Part shown: in pieces, positions 1,977 through 53,839 of the stretch
How the letters are laid out: each line of letters starts with the position of its first letter
Position numbering within the stretch: position 1 is the first letter of the stretch
Virus record (IMG/VR): IMGVR_UViG_3300044996_000325
Span: 1,085 to 65,084 of that record
From: a virus
Taxonomy: Duplodnaviria; Caudoviricetes
DNA: 64,000 nucleotides
Reading direction: 5' to 3' (one strand)
The notes under the pieces: generated by a model
What the model was told of the DNA's origin: nothing
Database searches by the model: none
Seen by the model: only the letters and a program-made list of their open reading frames with translations
Program-made: the position numbers and the translations under genes

Positions 1977-3146
1977 TCAGTCCTTGTAGGGGTCCTCTTC
2001 GCCTTTCCCGGCCATCATGACGACGATCGGCCACAGGCGGGTGCGGATGCGAAGGTTTTCGTGGTATCCGAGGACGGTGCTGAGCCCCCGGTAGGCATTC
2101 GGTGCTTCGTCGGCGCCGCCGCCGTAGAGGTGAACGCCCATCTTTTCGAGATAGACATTCACGTCCTGCATATTGATCAATTTCTTGGCTTGGCTGCGCG
2201 ACATGGTTCGTCCAGCTCCGTGCGGAGCGGAATTGAGAGATGCGTACATCTCCGTTGTTCCGGGAATGGGCTCGACAATGGCGGATATGTCTCCCATGGA
2301 ACCGCCGATGAAGATCGGCTTGTCCCACAGTGGGGTCGCTCCCTTGCGGATCACCCAGTAGTGCTCGCCCTGGATGATCTCGGACCAGGCGAAGTTATGA
2401 TGGTTCGAGATCATCTCTACCGGCTTGGCGCCGAGAATGTCGAGGATGTATTCCACGACCATCTTGCGTCCCAGGGTGGCGTACATGCCAGCGAAACACA
2501 TTGCCTCAAGGTAGTCATCGAACAGCGGCGTGTTCTCTTCGAGCAGCGCTGGCGGCCCATCCATGGTGTCTTTGAAGCCAAGGATCTCCATCGTCTTCCT
2601 GGCGATTTTGTGTCCGAAACCGCGCGATCCGAAGTGGCAAGCCACCCAGACATTCTGGTCCTTGTCGTTCATGATGTCGACGTAGTGGTTTCCGCCGCCA
2701 ATGGTACCTAGCTGTGAGGCTGCGAGCTGTTTCAGGTCCTTCATCAGCGGGTTCTTCCAGTCGATGCCCAGGATTTCTATCTCTCCTTTGTGGAGCGGAG
2801 ACGTAGTCCCGATGCCGAAGACGATCTTCTCGCGGATCTTGGTGACCAGATTGTCGATATCGCCGAGGTCTCGTGGGCGCAGGCTGGTGCGCACCGCATA
2901 GTTTCCACAGCCAATGTCGTAGCCGACACCAGTCGGGGAGATGTGACGAGGATAGGCCACGACGCCGCCGATAGGCATGCGGTAACCTTTGTGCTTGTCG
3001 GCCATGAGGGCTCCAAATGAGCCATCGACGGCATCAAGGCAGGCCCGGATCTGCTGATATACCGGGCTGTTCTTGTAGAAGTTCCCGTCCTCGATGTCAT
3101 CCATCGGGCCAAAAACTGTTAGGTTGGCTTCCTGCACTCGGATCAT
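1977..3146 (-). CDS. rtcB: RtcB family RNA ligase
   Basis: Motifs MADKHKGYRMPIGGV, GYDIGCG, QLGTIGGGNHY, HFGSRG, HHNFA, RKGAT, GSMG, HGAGR, DEAPNAYR. Confidence 0.95.
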   Translation of the reverse strand: MIRVQEANLTVFGPMDDIEDGNFYKNSPVYQQIRACLDAVDGSFGALMADKHKGYRMPIGGVVAYPRHISPTGVGYDIGCGNYAVRTSLRPRDLGDIDNLVTKIREKIVFGIGTTSPLHKGEIEILGIDWKNPLMKDLKQLAASQLGTIGGGNHYVDIMNDKDQNVWVACHFGSRGFGHKIARKTMEILGFKDTMDGPPALLEENTPLFDDYLEAMCFAGMYATLGRKMVVEYILDILGAKPVEMISNHHNFAWSEIIQGEHYWVIRKGATPLWDKPIFIGGSMGDISAIVEPIPGTTEMYASLNSAPHGAGRTMSRSQAKKLINMQDVNVYLEKMGVHLYGGGADEAPNAYRGLSTVLGYHENLRIRTRLWPIVVMMAGKGEEDPYKD

Positions 3147-3294: not shown

Positions 3295-3519
3295 TCATAG
3301 GTTCTCCAGGTATCCGACGACCAGTCCGGGCACTGATCCGTCCAGGGCGGTGATAATGTCCTGCAGGCGGGCTTCGATGGTATTGGCGAGCTCGACTTCA
3401 TTGAAGCCGGCGTTGCGCAGGAATGGAAGGTTTTTCTCGTCGATCTTGATCGTGACGGTGACCGAACCAACCTGCATGCCGTCGATCTCGAACGGGAATT
3501 TCTTGGATCCGGTAGCCAT
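3295..3519 (-). CDS. hypothetical protein
   Basis: MATGSKKFPFEIDG..., TAATG coupling with upstream gene. Confidence 0.55.
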   Translation of the reverse strand: MATGSKKFPFEIDGMQVGSVTVTIKIDEKNLPFLRNAGFNEVELANTIEARLQDIITALDGSVPGLVVGYLENL

Positions 3520-3941
3520 TAGAAGCATCCTTTTGGGAAGAAGTCGACGCAGCGCTCGATCGCTCCCGGGAGAAGCGGAGCGATGATAAAGTACAGCGCG
3601 ATGAATGGGATAGCCAGTACTACGAGAAGTACAGGGATCCAGAGACATCCGGTTCCGCTGTATGATCGGATGTAGTCCGGCGGATCGGACGGCTTCCATC
3701 CGCTCGCGGCTCTCTCTGCGCGGTAGCGCTCCATGTCTTTTTCTTTCCACTCTTCGACTTTTTCGCCGAGAATGAATGCAGGAAGAGCGGCAGGCGTCAT
3801 AATTGCACCGAATGCGGCTCTTGCGAGATCTTCGCTGACACACTGGCTCTGCTCGCTGAACGTTGCATCGTCTGGCAAATCTGGAGACGACGGCTCGAAC
3901 CACATATCCCACCAGTCATGGACGATATCTTTTGTTGACAT
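3519..3941 (-). CDS. hypothetical membrane protein
   Basis: AAGGAG RBS, C-terminal hydrophobic helix. Confidence 0.65.
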   Translation of the reverse strand: MSTKDIVHDWWDMWFEPSSPDLPDDATFSEQSQCVSEDLARAAFGAIMTPAALPAFILGEKVEEWKEKDMERYRAERAASGWKPSDPPDYIRSYSGTGCLWIPVLLVVLAIPFIALYFIIAPLLPGAIERCVDFFPKGCF

Positions 3942-3983
3942 ATGCAAATCTCCTTTTCTTGTTGAGTTTCATACGTCTGAAAG

Positions 3984-4075
3984 TGACCGCGGCAGGAGTT
4001 GAACCTGCATGCTTTCTTTCAAGCCATCCGGAGTTACAGTCCGGTGTGTCTAAAGCCGATATACACCTCGCGGCC
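3984..4075 (-). tRNA. tRNA-Tyr(GTA), long variable arm, enlarged D loop
   Basis: GGCCGCG/CGCGGTC acceptor, CCGGA-CTGTAAC-TCCGG anticodon arm, GCAGG-TTCAACT-CCTGC T arm, discriminator A. Confidence 0.85.
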
Positions 4076-4202
4076 AGGGGCGGTATACGATCCGCCAACG
4101 GCCTGTGCTATAGCATTTCAGGCTAGGTTTAGTTAGCGTCTTTCCTACGTCGCAGGCCCAGTGGCTCCTTCGTCAAGGATAAATCTGCGCGTTACGGGCT
4201 CC

Positions 4203-4278
4203 TGGCGGAGAAGGCATGGTTCGAACATGCGACCTTCCGGGTAACAGCCGGGCGCTCTTCCAGCTGAGCTACTTCTCC
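4203..4278 (-). tRNA. tRNA with GTT (Asn) anticodon and Asp-like body, CCA encoded
   Basis: GGAGAAG/CTTCTCC acceptor, GCTC/GAGC D stem, loop CTGTTAC, GCATG-TTCGAAC-CATGC T arm, ends GCCA. Confidence 0.9.
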
Positions 4279-4364
4279 GAATGTGCGTCTTGGTCGCCTA
4301 GTCAACGCACGTGGGCCTCTTACCGCACTGGGCTCGGCCTTTGCGGTTACGATCCGCCAACGAG

Positions 4365-4436
4365 TTGCGGGGGACGGGATCGAACCGTCGACCTGCTGGT
4401 TATGAGCCAACCGTGCTACCACTGCACTACCCCGCA
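4365..4436 (-). tRNA. tRNA-Met(CAT), initiator-like
   Basis: TGCGGGG...CCCCGCAA acceptor like tRNA-fMet, loop CTCATAA, GACGG-TTCGATC-CCGTC T arm; CCA not encoded. Confidence 0.9.
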
Positions 4437-4910
4437 AGGGTCCCCGCCGCCGGGTGCGGATCCTTTCTGCACGCTTCGGTTCGTCTGCCTTTACCGTCGT
4501 GCGACCATCCTGCGTTTCGGCGGGGTGTCGTCCGGTTACGTGATACATCTTCCGGCGTCGCATTCTACGACCGATGAGGCTGGCCCCTTCTCACCACTGG
4601 GCAGGTGACGCCTATGGCGTTGTCCGTTCTTCAGTAATGTCGCTAGTACCGAAGTACCGACCTCAAGACCATTGGCCGGGCGTGAACGATGATCGCCATG
4701 TTCTCCCCGCTGCTCGGCCACTTTCCCGCTGGAAGGTTTCTTGCTAGGCCGACTTGCGTCATTTCTCACACGGCGGGGTTTTCTGCGGGCGGAACGTCTT
4801 TGTTTGCCAGTCCGGGGTGCTCTTTTCTTCTCAGTTGGCCCCGTGACATTCCCGACTTGTTCAGAGATGTCAACCCTGGTCCCTGCGGCTTTCGCCGCCG
4901 CCCGCATAGT
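4437..4910 (-). ncRNA. candidate large structured non-coding RNA
   Basis: Nested helices (4784-4792/4898-4906; 4705-4710/4773-4778; 4442-4449/4518-4525) and GAAA, GCAA and cUUCGg tetraloops that are canonical only on the minus strand. Confidence 0.6.
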
Positions 4911-4913
4911 GCT

Positions 4914-5228
4914 TCACTTCGCTCTCCGTTCTTGCTGCGGGATCGGGCGATAGGTATCCAGCGGCGATCCGCGAAGTTCCCTTCCGAAGACGATCGTCAC
5001 GGTCTCGGTAAGCGGTCCTGACCAGGAAGAGCGCCGGTGTATCGTCCAGCTCTTACTCTGAAGCCAGTCCAGTCCCTTGTCCAGGTGCGCTTCTCCGAAG
5101 TCCCCTAGGGGGAACCCTGCTCTCATGAGCGACGGGGAGACGGAGATGATCTTTCTTGACAAAATGTTCCCCCGGCAGTGCGGCTTCCGAGACAGCCTCA
5201 CTTCGAATTTCAGTTCCAGATCGTCCAT
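4914..5228 (-). CDS. hypothetical protein
   Basis: 104 aa, AGGA RBS. Confidence 0.65.
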   Translation of the reverse strand: MDDLELKFEVRLSRKPHCRGNILSRKIISVSPSLMRAGFPLGDFGEAHLDKGLDWLQSKSWTIHRRSSWSGPLTETVTIVFGRELRGSPLDTYRPIPQQERRAK

Positions 5229-5414
5229 TGTCCTGCTCCTTGAGCTCTACGAATGTGTACGAATTCTCGGACAGCCATTCATTGATCCACGAGATTTCTG
5301 GATCTTCCAGGGCCGCCAATGCCCGTCGGCATGCCTGGCATTCAGGTTCGCATTCGTCCACTTCGAAGAAATGACGAAGGTCCTTTTCGAGATCGAGCCG
5401 GATACGCTCCGGTG

Positions 5415-5684
5415 TTACAGCCTGGGGGGTCCAGCCGTGATAGAGATGGGTATCCATGGGATGTTCTCCTGCGGAAGATCGCGATTGTCTGTCTCCCATA
5501 CGACACGCGACCCTTCCGTAATGACGATCCGCGTTGCCGTGTCTTCTGCAATGCGCTGGGCGGTCAATGCTGCGCGTCCCAGGTTGCTGAAGCGCGCTCT
5601 GAGACCACGTGCCCTATCCTGGAACTTGAACGTGCCATCGATCTGATCGAGCTGCTCTTGCGTCAGTCCACTGTACTTTGCCAT
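5415..5684 (-). CDS. hypothetical protein, first gene after the 5840 promoter
   Basis: 89 aa, GGAG RBS. Confidence 0.65.
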   Translation of the reverse strand: MAKYSGLTQEQLDQIDGTFKFQDRARGLRARFSNLGRAALTAQRIAEDTATRIVITEGSRVVWETDNRDLPQENIPWIPISITAGPPRL

Positions 5685-5839
5685 AATGTTCTCCGATAGA
5701 AGGTTTGGTTTGCAAATCCTTTCGGCTGTAAAGGTTCTGGACTACTATGGGGGCCGCCGGGTGATGCTCCCGGTACTCGCTGTTTGCGACGGCCCCAGGA
5801 GGAGAAGAAACGCTGCTGACCAGGCAAGCGTACGTTCCA

Positions 5840-8946: not shown

Positions 8947-9118
8947 GTCAGCGTACTCCTATGAGGGCGACCAGGCCGATCAGGGCGATCAGCGCCGCTC
9001 CCCCGAGCTGGCTCAGATCGTTCCCGGCGATGGCGAAGAATGCGTCTGTGGTGGCAAGGAAGATGGCGCACAGGAAGACAATTGTTCCTTTGCTGATCGA
9101 TCGGATGGCTCTCATGGT

Positions 9119-9292
9119 TTATCTCCTGTATCCGTGGATGACATCGGCGACTTCACCGATGACGACGACGGCGAGCGTGATCCTGGCGGTCAGCGCCGCA
9201 CATTCGCTCCCGTTCTGCACGATCAGATAGGTGATCACGGTGACGATGGAGATGATCAGGATATCTCCGATGAGGCAGTAGATGCGCTTCAT
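9119..9292 (-). CDS. small two-TM membrane protein
   Basis: MKRIYCLIGDILIISIVTVITYLIV...ITLAVVVIGEV; a similar small hydrophobic ORF follows at ~8947-9115. Confidence 0.5.
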   Translation of the reverse strand: MKRIYCLIGDILIISIVTVITYLIVQNGSECAALTARITLAVVVIGEVADVIHGYRR

Positions 9293-9474
9293 TCGTTCTC
9301 GCTTTCTGCTGGCTTGGTGAGTTCCACCAATTGTTTTGCGCGTTCGTGTGCTTCCTGTTTGGTGGTGCCGATGACCTTGGCGACGACGTTTCCTTCGGCG
9401 TCGCGCAGGTAGACGTTCCATCCCATTGATCCCTGGGATGCAAGTCCTGCCTTGAGGGGTAGCTTGAGCTTCAT
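9289..9474 (-). CDS. hypothetical protein
   Basis: MKLKLPLKAG... with AAGGAG RBS. Confidence 0.55.
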   Translation of the reverse strand: MKLKLPLKAGLASQGSMGWNVYLRDAEGNVVAKVIGTTKQEAHERAKQLVELTKPAESENE

Positions 9475-9685
9475 AGCTGGTCTCCTTCGATGTTGTCGTC
9501 TCCGTCGTAGAGGTCGACACAAAACCTGCCTTCTTCGGTCCTGGCGGGTCTTTCTGCTCTGATCGGTAGCTTCATGGGTTTCATGGTTCATCTCCAGTTT
9601 CTGGCGTCTGAAACAGCGCCGCCCAAATCAGCGCCGCCTTCCCCCACTCCCATAAGCGAAAACGCCTATATATAGAGAGGGGGGA

Positions 9686-14497: not shown

Positions 14498-14586
14498 GAC
14501 AATTCTCCTTTTGTGCGGACGTGAATTTGACTGGGCTTAGGACCAGTCCGCCGCATTACGGCGCCCCCTGCGCCGCCTTCTGCGAT

Positions 14587-53086: not shown

Positions 53087-53115
53087 AGTGTAACACGGCC
53101 CAACAAAAAGGTCAA
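53087..53115 (-). promoter_or_regulatory. leftward promoter TTGACC-N17-TACACT
   Basis: ggtcaa 53110-53115, agtgta 53087-53092. Confidence 0.7.
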
Positions 53116-53137
53116 GCGCCAGATATGGCGTTTTTTC

Positions 53138-53165
53138 TTGACAACTGGTCAATATGTGGTACACT
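53138..53165 (+). promoter_or_regulatory. repressor promoter TTGACA-N16-(TGg)TACACT
   Basis: TTGACA 53138-53143, TACACT 53160-53165. Confidence 0.7.
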
Positions 53166-53205
53166 GTCGCTGTTGACAAATCCGACCCGTTCTACGGGAG
53201 GGTAT

Positions 53206-53616
53206 ATGCTAAAGGATGTTTTGCAAGGAGCAATGCGCTCACGTGGGATGAGCACGCGTGAAGCTGCCCGAGAAATCGGTATCTCTCATACCACTGTTTT
53301 CAGAGTGATAAAGGGAGACCCGTTTGATGTCGATACGCTTATTGCAATAGCGAACTGGCTCAAGGTGCGTCCGTCAACTCTCCTTGACAGCCTGGCGCGT
53401 TCTGATACAATAGGCGACCTATCACTTCTGATCGAGAGATATCCGGGTATTTTGGATGTGCTAAAACAGGCGTCGGTGGCTGTCAACCAGGGAGCCGCTT
53501 CTCAGGAGATCCTGGTCGACATTCTCTCCTATGCCCTGTACAAACTCTCTCTTAGAGGTGATAAAGATGGACCGTCCACTAAGTCAGGAGGAAAAGAGAC
53601 TTCTGAAGCTCGTTGA
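53206..53616 (+). CDS. XRE-family HTH repressor
   Basis: MSTREAAREIGISHTTVFRVIKG...TLIAIANWL; divergent from replication operon. Confidence 0.8.
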   Translation: MLKDVLQGAMRSRGMSTREAAREIGISHTTVFRVIKGDPFDVDTLIAIANWLKVRPSTLLDSLARSDTIGDLSLLIERYPGILDVLKQASVAVNQGAASQEILVDILSYALYKLSLRGDKDGPSTKSGGKETSEAR

Positions 53617-53716
53617 AGCACTTATCTCGTTAGGAGATGCAACATCGAGCGATACGGAAACCACCACCACTGGTGGTGGATCAGACAGCGAAGCCCCCCA
53701 GATGTAGTGGCAAAAA

Positions 53717-53770
<54 letters not shown>

Positions 53771-53802
53771 ACCCCCCACCCCTGGCCAAAAGCCCCGAAA
53801 TA

Positions 53803-53838
53803 ACGAAAACACCCCCCAGAGATGGGGGGTGTTTTCGT
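53803..53838. terminator. bidirectional terminator
   Basis: ACGAAAACACCCCCCA-gaga-TGGGGGGTGTTTTCGT perfect 16-bp IR. Confidence 0.85.
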
Positions 53839-53839
53839 C

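What the first reader, a model, noticed from the sequence alone, without database searches (positions are those of the whole stretch)
4437..4910. Candidate ~470-nt multi-domain structured RNA leading into the tRNA cluster
Seen (minus strand): domain 1 is closed by TGCGGGCGG/CCGCCCGCA (4898-4906 with 4784-4792) and contains CGGC-GAAA-GCCG (4886-4897) and a TGACAT...ATGTCA hairpin (4844-4872). Domain 2 is closed by CCCCGC/GCGGGG (4773-4778 with 4705-4710) and contains GAC-GCAA-GTC and a GGCC helix. Then come GTAC-TTCG-GTAC (4646-4657), ACGCC-ATA-GGCGT, TCACC...GGTGA, and a last domain closed by CCCCGCCG/CGGCGGGG (4518-4525 with 4442-4449) ending just before tRNA-Met. The tetraloops are canonical only on this strand, and the overlapping ORFs look spurious. 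Known: GOLLD and ROOL are large phage ncRNAs often next to tRNA genes. I do not see RNase P, tmRNA or group I hallmarks. Inference: possibly a new large ncRNA class, perhaps extending through the tRNA spacers to ~4076.
Basis: partly seen in the sequence, partly recalled or inferred. Interest (0 to 1): 0.8.

Follow-up and report, generated by a model that had tools for sequence, protein, structure and literature searches.

The report
Orphan non-coding leader before phage tRNAs
A 477-base gene-free stretch just ahead of three tRNA genes in an uncultured lake phage is probably transcribed as a hairpin-rich RNA leader, but it has no relatives anywhere I could search, so its folding and function stay unproven.

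Summary
The stretch 4437-4913 (minus strand) lies between a called 104-aa gene and tRNA-Met/Asn/Tyr, upstream of RtcB, in a 65-kb IMG/VR lake-water phage record.

It looks non-coding:
- ORF 4536-4907 has spurious-type codon usage.
- It has no homolog among 5.8 billion proteins.
- No Pfam or PHROG match in 10 frames.

No Rfam family matches at E<=10.

Evidence for a specific fold is weak to moderate:
- Whole-region z is -1.45.
- Domain 1 z is -2.92, but its borders were chosen afterwards.
- There are three GNRA/UUCG hairpins on the minus strand and none on the plus strand.
- The ensemble is unusually well defined.
- U content is the lowest in the window.

No homolog turned up in phage, IMG/VR, metagenome or related-phage searches, by BLAST, nhmmer or two single-sequence covariance models. 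Covariation therefore cannot be tested.

Best reading (0.42): a co-transcribed structured leader released by tRNA processing. It is not a demonstrated new RNA class.

Unchecked notes from this scan report structured RNAs heading tRNA/RtcB islands in other phages.

The parts
4437..4913 (-). 477-nt gene-free stretch, the candidate leader RNA. It runs from the stop of the 104-aa gene to the base before tRNA-Met.
   Evidence: ORF and codon analysis. Composition is A .273, C .281, G .321, U .126. U content is the lowest of all 477-nt windows. No Rfam match.
4784..4906 (-). Domain 1: a 9-bp closing helix, a GAAA hairpin, the TGACAT/ATGTCA hairpin and a GGGGC/CCCCG hairpin.
   Evidence: Minimum-energy and centroid folds agree. 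z is -2.92, 0 of 200 shuffles. It also forms in the whole-region fold.
4705..4778 (-). Domain 2: CCCCGC/GCGGGG closure, a GCAA-loop hairpin and a GGCC helix.
   Evidence: z is -1.73, with 11 of 200 shuffles as good. The closing strand can also pair with 4442-4449.
4526..4704 (-). Middle part with the UUCG hairpin (4646-4657), ACGCC-ATA-GGCGT and TCACC/GGTGA. The folds here compete.
   Evidence: z is -0.17. For 4590-4704 z is -1.16, and the minimum-energy fold uses a rival hairpin.
4442..4525 (-). Domain 4: an 8-bp CCCCGCCG/CGGCGGGG closure that ends 5 nt before tRNA-Met.
   Evidence: z is -2.88. For 4437-4530 z is -1.87.
4364..4436 (-). tRNA-Met (CAT). Its 5' end would define the 3' end of the leader after RNase P cleavage (inference).
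   Evidence: ARAGORN. Rfam tRNA 67.4 bits.
4203..4278 (-). tRNA-Asn (GTT)
3983..4075 (-). tRNA-Tyr (GTA)
4348..4362 (-). Copy 1 of an exact 15-nt direct repeat, just 3' of tRNA-Met. It forms a small GCGG/CCGC hairpin.
   Evidence: the repeat finder family D3. These are the only two copies in 64 kb.
4086..4100 (-). Copy 2 of the 15-nt repeat, just 5' of tRNA-Tyr.
4914..5228 (-). Upstream 104-aa gene (P0121) with an AAGGAG ribosome-binding site. It sets the 5' border of the gene-free stretch.
   Evidence: It is a called gene in the protein collection. It has a weak repeat-domain relative, P0244, at E 6.5e-16.
1977..3146 (-). RtcB RNA ligase, co-oriented, 837 nt downstream of tRNA-Tyr.
   Evidence: Pfam PF01139 at 7.8e-63. 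PHROG 1075.

Best explanation
The stretch 4437-4913 is non-coding. It is most likely transcribed on the minus strand together with the genes upstream and the three tRNAs downstream.

RNase P cleavage at the 5' end of tRNA-Met would then release it as an RNA of about 480 nt. This RNA would be U-poor and rich in hairpins: GC stems, A-rich loops, and GAAA, GCAA and UUCG caps.

In this reading it is a structured leader or by-product RNA of a phage tRNA island. Its compact end domains (1 and 4) would protect it from exonucleases and might guide or time the processing of the tRNA precursor.

Shown: it is non-coding, strand-asymmetric and locally well folded. Inferred: that it is transcribed, that it is released by RNase P, and that it has any role in stability or processing or any function in trans.
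For: Non-coding:
- ORF 4536-4907 scores -0.152 per codon with GC1/2/3 of .63/.59/.53. This is like the antisense ORFs (-0.10 to -0.30). Three neighbouring genes score +0.12 to +0.20 and the training genes +0.10 to +0.58.
- The ORF is not a called gene and has no homolog (18 candidates, none scored).
- 0 of 10 stop-to-stop frames match PHROGs. The only Pfam row is a plus-strand frame at E 0.037, below the cut-off.
- It has no strong Shine-Dalgarno sequence, unlike the AAGGAG before the neighbouring genes.

Strand-specific signal:
- U is 12.6% against A at 27.3%. This is the lowest U of all 477-nt windows; the mean is .204 with sd .029.
- Three tetraloop hairpins lie on the minus strand and none on the plus strand.
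- Ensemble diversity is 54, against 104 +/- 29 in shuffles (2 of 60 as low) and 122 for the plus strand. Only 3 of 70 other windows of the phage are as low.
- Domain 1 has z -2.92.

Context:
- The last helix ends 5 nt before tRNA-Met.
- No sigma-70-like promoter and no minus-strand terminator was found in 3400-5800. The layout fits read-through transcription, though the scan is crude.
- It is the longest stretch I found in the window without a plausible gene. Of the two other large gaps from my crude gene caller, 9116-9685 holds small genes with ribosome-binding sites and 53097-53839 holds a plus-strand HTH gene and a short ORF.
- Long leaders before tRNA clusters are uncommon in RtcB phages. 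The median upstream gap is 15.5 nt, and 13 of 138 clusters have gaps of 400 nt or more.
Against: - Whole-region z is only -1.45 or -1.17. The middle 179 nt has z -0.17.
- The region is less stable than its G+C predicts.
- Domain borders were chosen after seeing the helices, so their z-scores are inflated.
- The closing helices are interchangeable and two listed hairpins lose to a rival fold.
- No homolog exists in any collection searched, so there is no conservation or covariation.
- The two nearest RtcB-bearing relatives (TerL 57-58%, RtcB 47%) have no tRNAs and tightly packed genes upstream of RtcB. The block is therefore recent and dispensable in this lineage.
- There is no expression evidence of any kind.
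Confidence: 0.42

Rival explanations
1. It is neutral spacer or an insertion scar. The stretch came in with a horizontally acquired tRNA block, or is what remains of decayed genes. It is transcribed only by read-through, and its hairpins are what any 60% G+C sequence gives.
For: - Whole-region z is unremarkable and the MFE is not better than G+C predicts.
- It is an orphan sequence.
- The tRNA block is absent from the nearest RtcB-bearing relatives.
- About 1% of minus-strand windows also reach 3 tetraloop hairpins.
Against: - The A-over-U skew is extreme and is the window's minimum U. Neutral sequence should drift toward the genome's mean.
- The ensemble is well defined on one strand only.
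- No trace of a decayed protein family appears in 10 frames. No decayed tRNA appears down to 70% ARAGORN thresholds inside 4437-4913.
- Phage genomes rarely keep about 480 nt of useless DNA. My crude gene call puts coding coverage at 89%.
Confidence: 0.3
2. It is the founding member of a new family of large, autonomously functioning phage ncRNAs tied to tRNA islands. It would work like GOLLD or ROOL, perhaps as an RNA-only assembly, and would not be just a leader.
For: - It has the same kind of location as GOLLD and ROOL, beside tRNAs in a phage (PMC12286853 passages).
- Its size is in the range I recall for ROOL.
- It has several tetraloop-capped hairpins and a U-poor, A-rich-loop composition.
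- Unchecked notes from this scan report conserved unclassified RNAs heading tRNA/RtcB islands in other phages.
Against: - No second member was found anywhere.
- No Rfam similarity.
- Thermodynamic support is weak for the whole molecule and absent for its middle third.
- No pseudoknots or tertiary motifs were identified.
Confidence: 0.13
3. It is a DNA-level element rather than an RNA, such as a regulatory region, operator, promoter, attachment site or replication origin. One candidate operator is the palindrome TGACAT-N17-ATGTCA.
For: A TTGACA hexamer and a 6-bp palindrome with 17-nt spacing lie at 4844-4873. The region lies between gene blocks.
Against: - No sigma-70-like promoter was called on either strand.
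- There are no iterons and no AT-rich tract, and G+C is 60%.
- No integrase or replication gene lies nearby.
- The strand asymmetry points to an RNA-level constraint.
Confidence: 0.07
4. ORF 4536-4907 is a real gene for a 123-aa, very basic, disordered protein.
For: The frame is open for 125 codons. It starts at an ATG 6 nt after the upstream stop codon. Its neighbours are also orphans.
Against: - The codon score is -0.152 and GC3 is lower than GC1 and GC2, the reverse of the real genes.
- The U-poor strand makes long open frames likely by chance (inference).
- It is not called by gene finders and has no homolog.
- It matches no family.
- It has only a weak GAAG in place of the AAGGAG-type sites of its neighbours.
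Confidence: 0.06

Closest known systems
GOLLD and ROOL large ornate RNAs of phages and prophages
   Same: A large non-coding stretch in a phage directly beside tRNA genes. PMC12286853 (passages read) says both are 'often near tRNA islands', and that GOLLD env-38 came from a marine metagenome beside a Met-tRNA. Like them it has no partner protein and an unknown function.
   Different: No match to either Rfam model, or to any of the 4227 families, at E<=10. At 477 nt it is far shorter than GOLLD, where many members exceed 800 nt. No conserved family, covariation or pseudoknots are shown. It lies upstream of the tRNAs.
Phage T4 RNAC and RNAD (species 1 and 2 stable RNAs)
   Same: Phage RNAs of unknown function (PMC9697503, passages read). 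From my own recall, they are encoded within the T4 tRNA gene cluster and are released from the tRNA precursor transcripts. That is the mechanism I propose here.
   Different: From recall, the T4 RNAs are about 120-140 nt, against 477 nt here. No sequence comparison was made. Expression is shown for T4 and not for this region.
YrlA/Y RNAs of rsr-rtcB RNA-repair operons
   Same: A non-coding RNA encoded close to RtcB in an RNA-repair context.
   Different: No Rfam Y-RNA match. No Ro60/TROVE gene in the phage record. No tRNA-like unit inside the stretch, even at 70% ARAGORN thresholds.
Ordinary 5' leaders and spacers of bacterial and phage tRNA operons
   Same: It sits directly 5' of the first tRNA and would be removed by RNase P (established tRNA-maturation pathway, inference here).
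   Different: It is much longer than usual. The median gap before 138 tRNA clusters in RtcB phage loci was 15.5 nt. It also has strand-specific composition and tetraloop hairpins.

Membership tests
GOLLD RNA (Rfam) | Scores against the Rfam covariance model (conserved 3' region) | tested here: not met
   cmscan of 3800-5300 at E<=10 lists only 3 tRNAs and one plus-strand chance row. The window-wide gathering scan has no GOLLD either.
GOLLD RNA (Rfam) | Encoded in a phage or prophage near tRNA genes | tested here: met
   The source is an IMG/VR virus record. tRNA-Met starts 1 nt after the stretch.
ROOL RNA (Rfam) | Scores against the Rfam covariance model | tested here: not met
   No match at E<=10.
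YrlA / Y RNA with Ro60 (Rsr) | Rfam match, a tRNA-like domain, and a Ro60/TROVE partner gene | tested here: not met
   No Rfam match. PF05731 was found in 0 of 1 record, while the controls did match. No tRNA-like unit at relaxed thresholds.
RNase P RNA, tmRNA, group I/II introns, known ribozymes | Rfam covariance model match; ARAGORN for tmRNA | tested here: not met
Structured ncRNA family (any, new) | Homologs with covarying base pairs | tested here: inconclusive
   No homolog was found, so no alignment could be built. The closest phage relatives that can be reached as DNA are only 42-59% identical in TerL.
Structured ncRNA family (any, new) | Folding energy clearly below shuffled controls | tested here: inconclusive
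   Whole region z -1.45 or -1.17. Domain 1 z -2.92. Middle part z -0.17.
tRNA-precursor leader released by RNase P | Co-transcription with the tRNAs and a 3' end at tRNA position -1 | not testable with these tools
   There are no RNA data. The layout fits: same strand, no terminator or promoter call between.
Protein-coding gene | Codon usage, ribosome-binding site, homologs or a family match | tested here: not met

The most novel reading that the evidence does not exclude
The stretch encodes the first seen member of a new family of large, self-contained structured RNAs that head phage tRNA/RtcB islands. It would be functionally akin to GOLLD or ROOL but unrelated to them in sequence and fold. 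It would be cut free by RNase P and would act in trans, for example on tRNA supply or tRNA repair during infection.
Probability: 0.15. Interest if true: 0.6.

Novelty: new variant of a known kind. Interest (0 to 1): 0.3.

Why it matters
If real, it would add an unrelated example to the small set of large phage RNAs found beside tRNA genes, whose function is still unknown. It sits in a tRNA-plus-RtcB setting that hints at RNA repair or tRNA supply.

As it stands it is a single orphan sequence. It is useful mainly as a flagged locus to revisit when relatives or lake metatranscriptomes become available.

Tried and rejected
**Known families.** Rfam at gathering threshold on the window, and at E<=10 on 3800-5300, gave only tRNAs. 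Decayed tRNAs are rejected: ARAGORN at 90, 80 and 70% thresholds finds nothing on the minus strand inside 4437-4913. An internal duplication of domains 2 and 4 is rejected: only the closing strands are alike. A Y RNA system is rejected. No archease.

**Homolog hunts, all blank for the leader.**
- blastn against 50,697 phage records: 47 records matched, and in all 20 rows listed the match covers only query 564-640, the tRNA-Met part.
- The search for related loci with the 239-aa neighbour and with RtcB as single proteins: no relatives.
- 80 IMG/VR and 80 metagenome RtcB loci. nhmmer with the 477-nt query gave no hit in 80 loci. With an 885-nt query over 160 loci, every row I saw lies in query positions 502-812, the tRNA part and at most 23 nt of the leader. 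I printed only the first 5000 characters of that table, and the unseen rows are weaker than E 1.5.
- P0002 (RtcB 57%) as query in IMG/VR: 17 loci at 31-39% identity, and not its own contig.
- 50 TerL-related IMG/VR loci. I sent 34 of these 50, leaving out 16: three of the strongest on short contigs (L179, L185, L190), four short or partial ones (L203, L208, L220, L228) and the weak ones at 28-33% identity. BLAST of the leader against these 34 whole records matched 4 of 34, all 17-20 nt with E>=0.027, which I read as chance.
- Covariance models from single sequences. R1 (domain 1) and R2 (domain 4) were each searched against 97 and then 92 further loci; R1 alone was also searched against the 34 records. 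The best non-self hits were 14.4 bits (E 0.74) and 15.3 bits (E 1.7).
- tRNA anchors in IMG/VR. The Asn pattern gave 1 contig and the Met pattern 1 contig, both with unrelated flanks. The Tyr pattern gave 0.
- The spacer repeat pattern in GTDB contigs gave 10 hits in unrelated phyla, about the number expected by chance on my estimate, with no leader similarity.
- tblastn of RtcB against phages gave 7 records. I viewed two, and neither has an annotated tRNA or a comparable gap beside RtcB. TerL against phages gave no match.
- Rfam on 16 RtcB loci found tRNAs only, and no known large RNA beside RtcB.

**Sequencing runs.** Eight lake-water DNA runs were listed and no RNA holder. Four were laid. 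Their contigs are identical to the window where they cover it, so they give no variants for a population-level covariation test. All other pieces are foreign tRNA look-alikes. Parts without cover say nothing.

**Other blanks.**
- Protein P0121 has only 2 weak relatives. Its similarity to a DUF7507 repeat protein tells nothing about the RNA.
- The long-range 9-bp complement between 4594-4610 and 4148-4164 is at chance level by my estimate.
- Supplementary tables of PMC10690425 (10,006 candidate RNAs from IMG/VR intergenic regions) were not open to me. They could list this locus or a relative.
- I found no paper describing this RNA in searches. Those searches used general terms, so this is weak evidence of absence.

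Full report
**Source and layout.** The window is bases 1085-65084 of a 65,084-base IMG/VR virus record with an estimated completeness of 82%. Near-identical contigs occur in lake-water DNA runs. On the minus strand the order is:
- a called 104-aa gene at 4914-5228
- a 477-nt stretch at 4437-4913
- tRNA-Met 4364-4436, tRNA-Asn 4203-4278 and tRNA-Tyr 3983-4075
- a roughly 140-aa ORF
- RtcB at 1977-3146

**The observation.** Domain 1, the interior of domain 2 and domain 4 also come out of the minimum-energy folds. Two caveats apply. The two CCCCGCCG strands are interchangeable, so the whole-region fold nests everything from 4778 to 4442 in one long-range helix. In the middle part, a longer hairpin outcompetes both the UUCG hairpin and ACGCC-ATA-GGCGT.

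**Is it coding?** No evidence says so.
- ORF 4536-4907 scores -0.152 per codon with GC1/2/3 of .63/.59/.53. This is the pattern of the antisense ORFs. Three neighbouring genes score +0.12 to +0.20 and have low GC2 and high GC3. The called upstream gene scores only -0.04, so the test is not sharp.
- The ORF is not in the protein collection.
- It has no homolog among 5.8 billion proteins: 18 word candidates, none scored.
- 0 of 10 stop-to-stop frames match PHROGs. Pfam gives one plus-strand row at E 0.037, under the cut-off.
- It lacks the AAGGAG-type site of its neighbours.
- With only 12.6% U on this strand, long open frames are expected by chance (inference).

**Is it a known RNA?** No. Across 4227 Rfam families, nothing but the three tRNAs matches at E<=10 in 3800-5300. 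There is no tmRNA. No tRNA-like unit appears at relaxed ARAGORN thresholds. The record has no Ro60 gene that would point to a Y RNA.

**Is it structured beyond chance?** The evidence is mixed.

Against:
- Whole-region z is -1.45, or -1.17 in my run.
- The middle 179 nt has z -0.17.
- Relative to its G+C, the region folds less stably than 54 of 70 other windows of the phage.

For:
- Domain 1 has z -2.92 (0 of 200 shuffles) and domain 4 has z -1.87 to -2.88. Their borders were chosen from the helices.
- Three GNRA/UUCG hairpins of at least 4 bp lie on the minus strand and none on the plus strand. The background is 0.46 per window, and 12 of 1271 windows reach three.
- Ensemble diversity is 54, against 104 +/- 29 in shuffles (2 of 60 as low) and 122 for the plus strand. 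Only 3 of 70 other windows are as low.
- U content is the lowest of any 477-nt window in the 64 kb, with A more than twice U. This is the GC-stem, A-loop composition typical of structured RNAs, which is my reading and not a test.

**Conservation.** None could be found, and the reason is the phage's isolation rather than demonstrated absence.
- The nearest TerL proteins that can be reached as DNA are 42-59% identical. Closer ones (76-77%) sit on contigs of 5-9 kb, known only as proteins.
- The closest RtcB (57%, on a 54-kb contig) could not be fetched.
- BLAST, nhmmer and two single-sequence covariance models found nothing. They covered 160 RtcB loci, 34 whole related records, 12 anchor loci and the phage collection.
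- Anchoring on the three tRNAs gave two unrelated contigs.
- The four laid runs carry no variants.

**Context.**
- The two relatives that share both TerL (57-58%) and RtcB (47%) have no tRNAs and tightly packed genes upstream of RtcB. The leader-plus-tRNA block is therefore an addition in this lineage.
- tRNAs beside RtcB recur in other phages, and 71 of 177 RtcB loci carry tRNAs.
- Long leaders are uncommon. The median upstream gap is 15.5 nt, and 13 of 138 clusters have gaps of 400 nt or more, several of those being neighbouring tRNA arrays.
- No promoter or minus-strand terminator was called around the stretch. It is probably read through from upstream and cut at the tRNAs.
- The two tRNA spacers share an exact 15-nt repeat that forms a small hairpin. 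I estimate the chance of such a repeat within 1.1 kb at under 0.001.

**Mechanism.** I commit to the following at 0.42: a co-transcribed, structured leader freed by RNase P at tRNA-Met, stabilised by its two compact end domains.

This is the same logic by which, from recall, T4's RNAC and RNAD arise in its tRNA cluster. Their function is still unknown (PMC9697503, passages read). GOLLD and ROOL share the location (PMC12286853, passages read), but the Rfam membership test fails.

Rival readings:
- neutral spacer, 0.30
- a genuinely new autonomous RNA family, 0.13
- a DNA-level element, 0.07
- a basic protein, 0.06

**Verdict.** The sequence observation is accurate and the locus is a fair candidate.

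Unchecked notes from this scan describe conserved, unclassified RNAs heading tRNA/RtcB islands in other phages. That raises the prior a little but is not evidence about this sequence.

Noticed in passing
window 14531-14584 (-): A type-P5 twister self-cleaving ribozyme. It scores 46.0 bits against a gathering score of 37.6, covers the full model, and the conserved core letters are in place.
   Followed up: partly
window 4348-4362 and 4086-4100 (-): An exact 15-nt direct repeat, one copy just after tRNA-Met and one just before tRNA-Tyr. Each forms a small GC hairpin with an AUCGUA-type loop. These are the only two copies in 64 kb. It may be a processing or binding signal of the tRNA precursor.
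   Followed up: partly
window 5053-5499 (-) versus 4914-5228 (-): A 148-aa ORF overlaps the called 104-aa gene by about 175 nt. Its first two thirds read like a real protein and its tail like junk. No gene was called for 5229-5414. This could be a frameshift, a mis-called stop or a small unannotated gene.
   Followed up: no
window 9116-9685 (-): This looks like a 570-nt gap to a crude gene caller, but it holds at least two or three small genes with good ribosome-binding sites (one about 61 aa, one membrane-like). A TATATA-containing promoter-like tract lies at about 9660-9680.
   Followed up: partly
window 53207-53787 (+): A plus-strand HTH (Cro/CI-like) gene, a short acidic ORF and tRNA-Gly, followed by a terminator-like hairpin. 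The block is embedded among minus-strand genes.
   Followed up: no
window 4784-4789, 4901-4906 and 4431-4436 (-): The 3' strand of the domain-1 closing helix (CCCGCA) is complementary to the 5' strand of domain 1 and also to the first six bases of tRNA-Met (UGCGGG). A leader-tRNA alternative pairing is therefore possible, though it may be chance.
   Followed up: no
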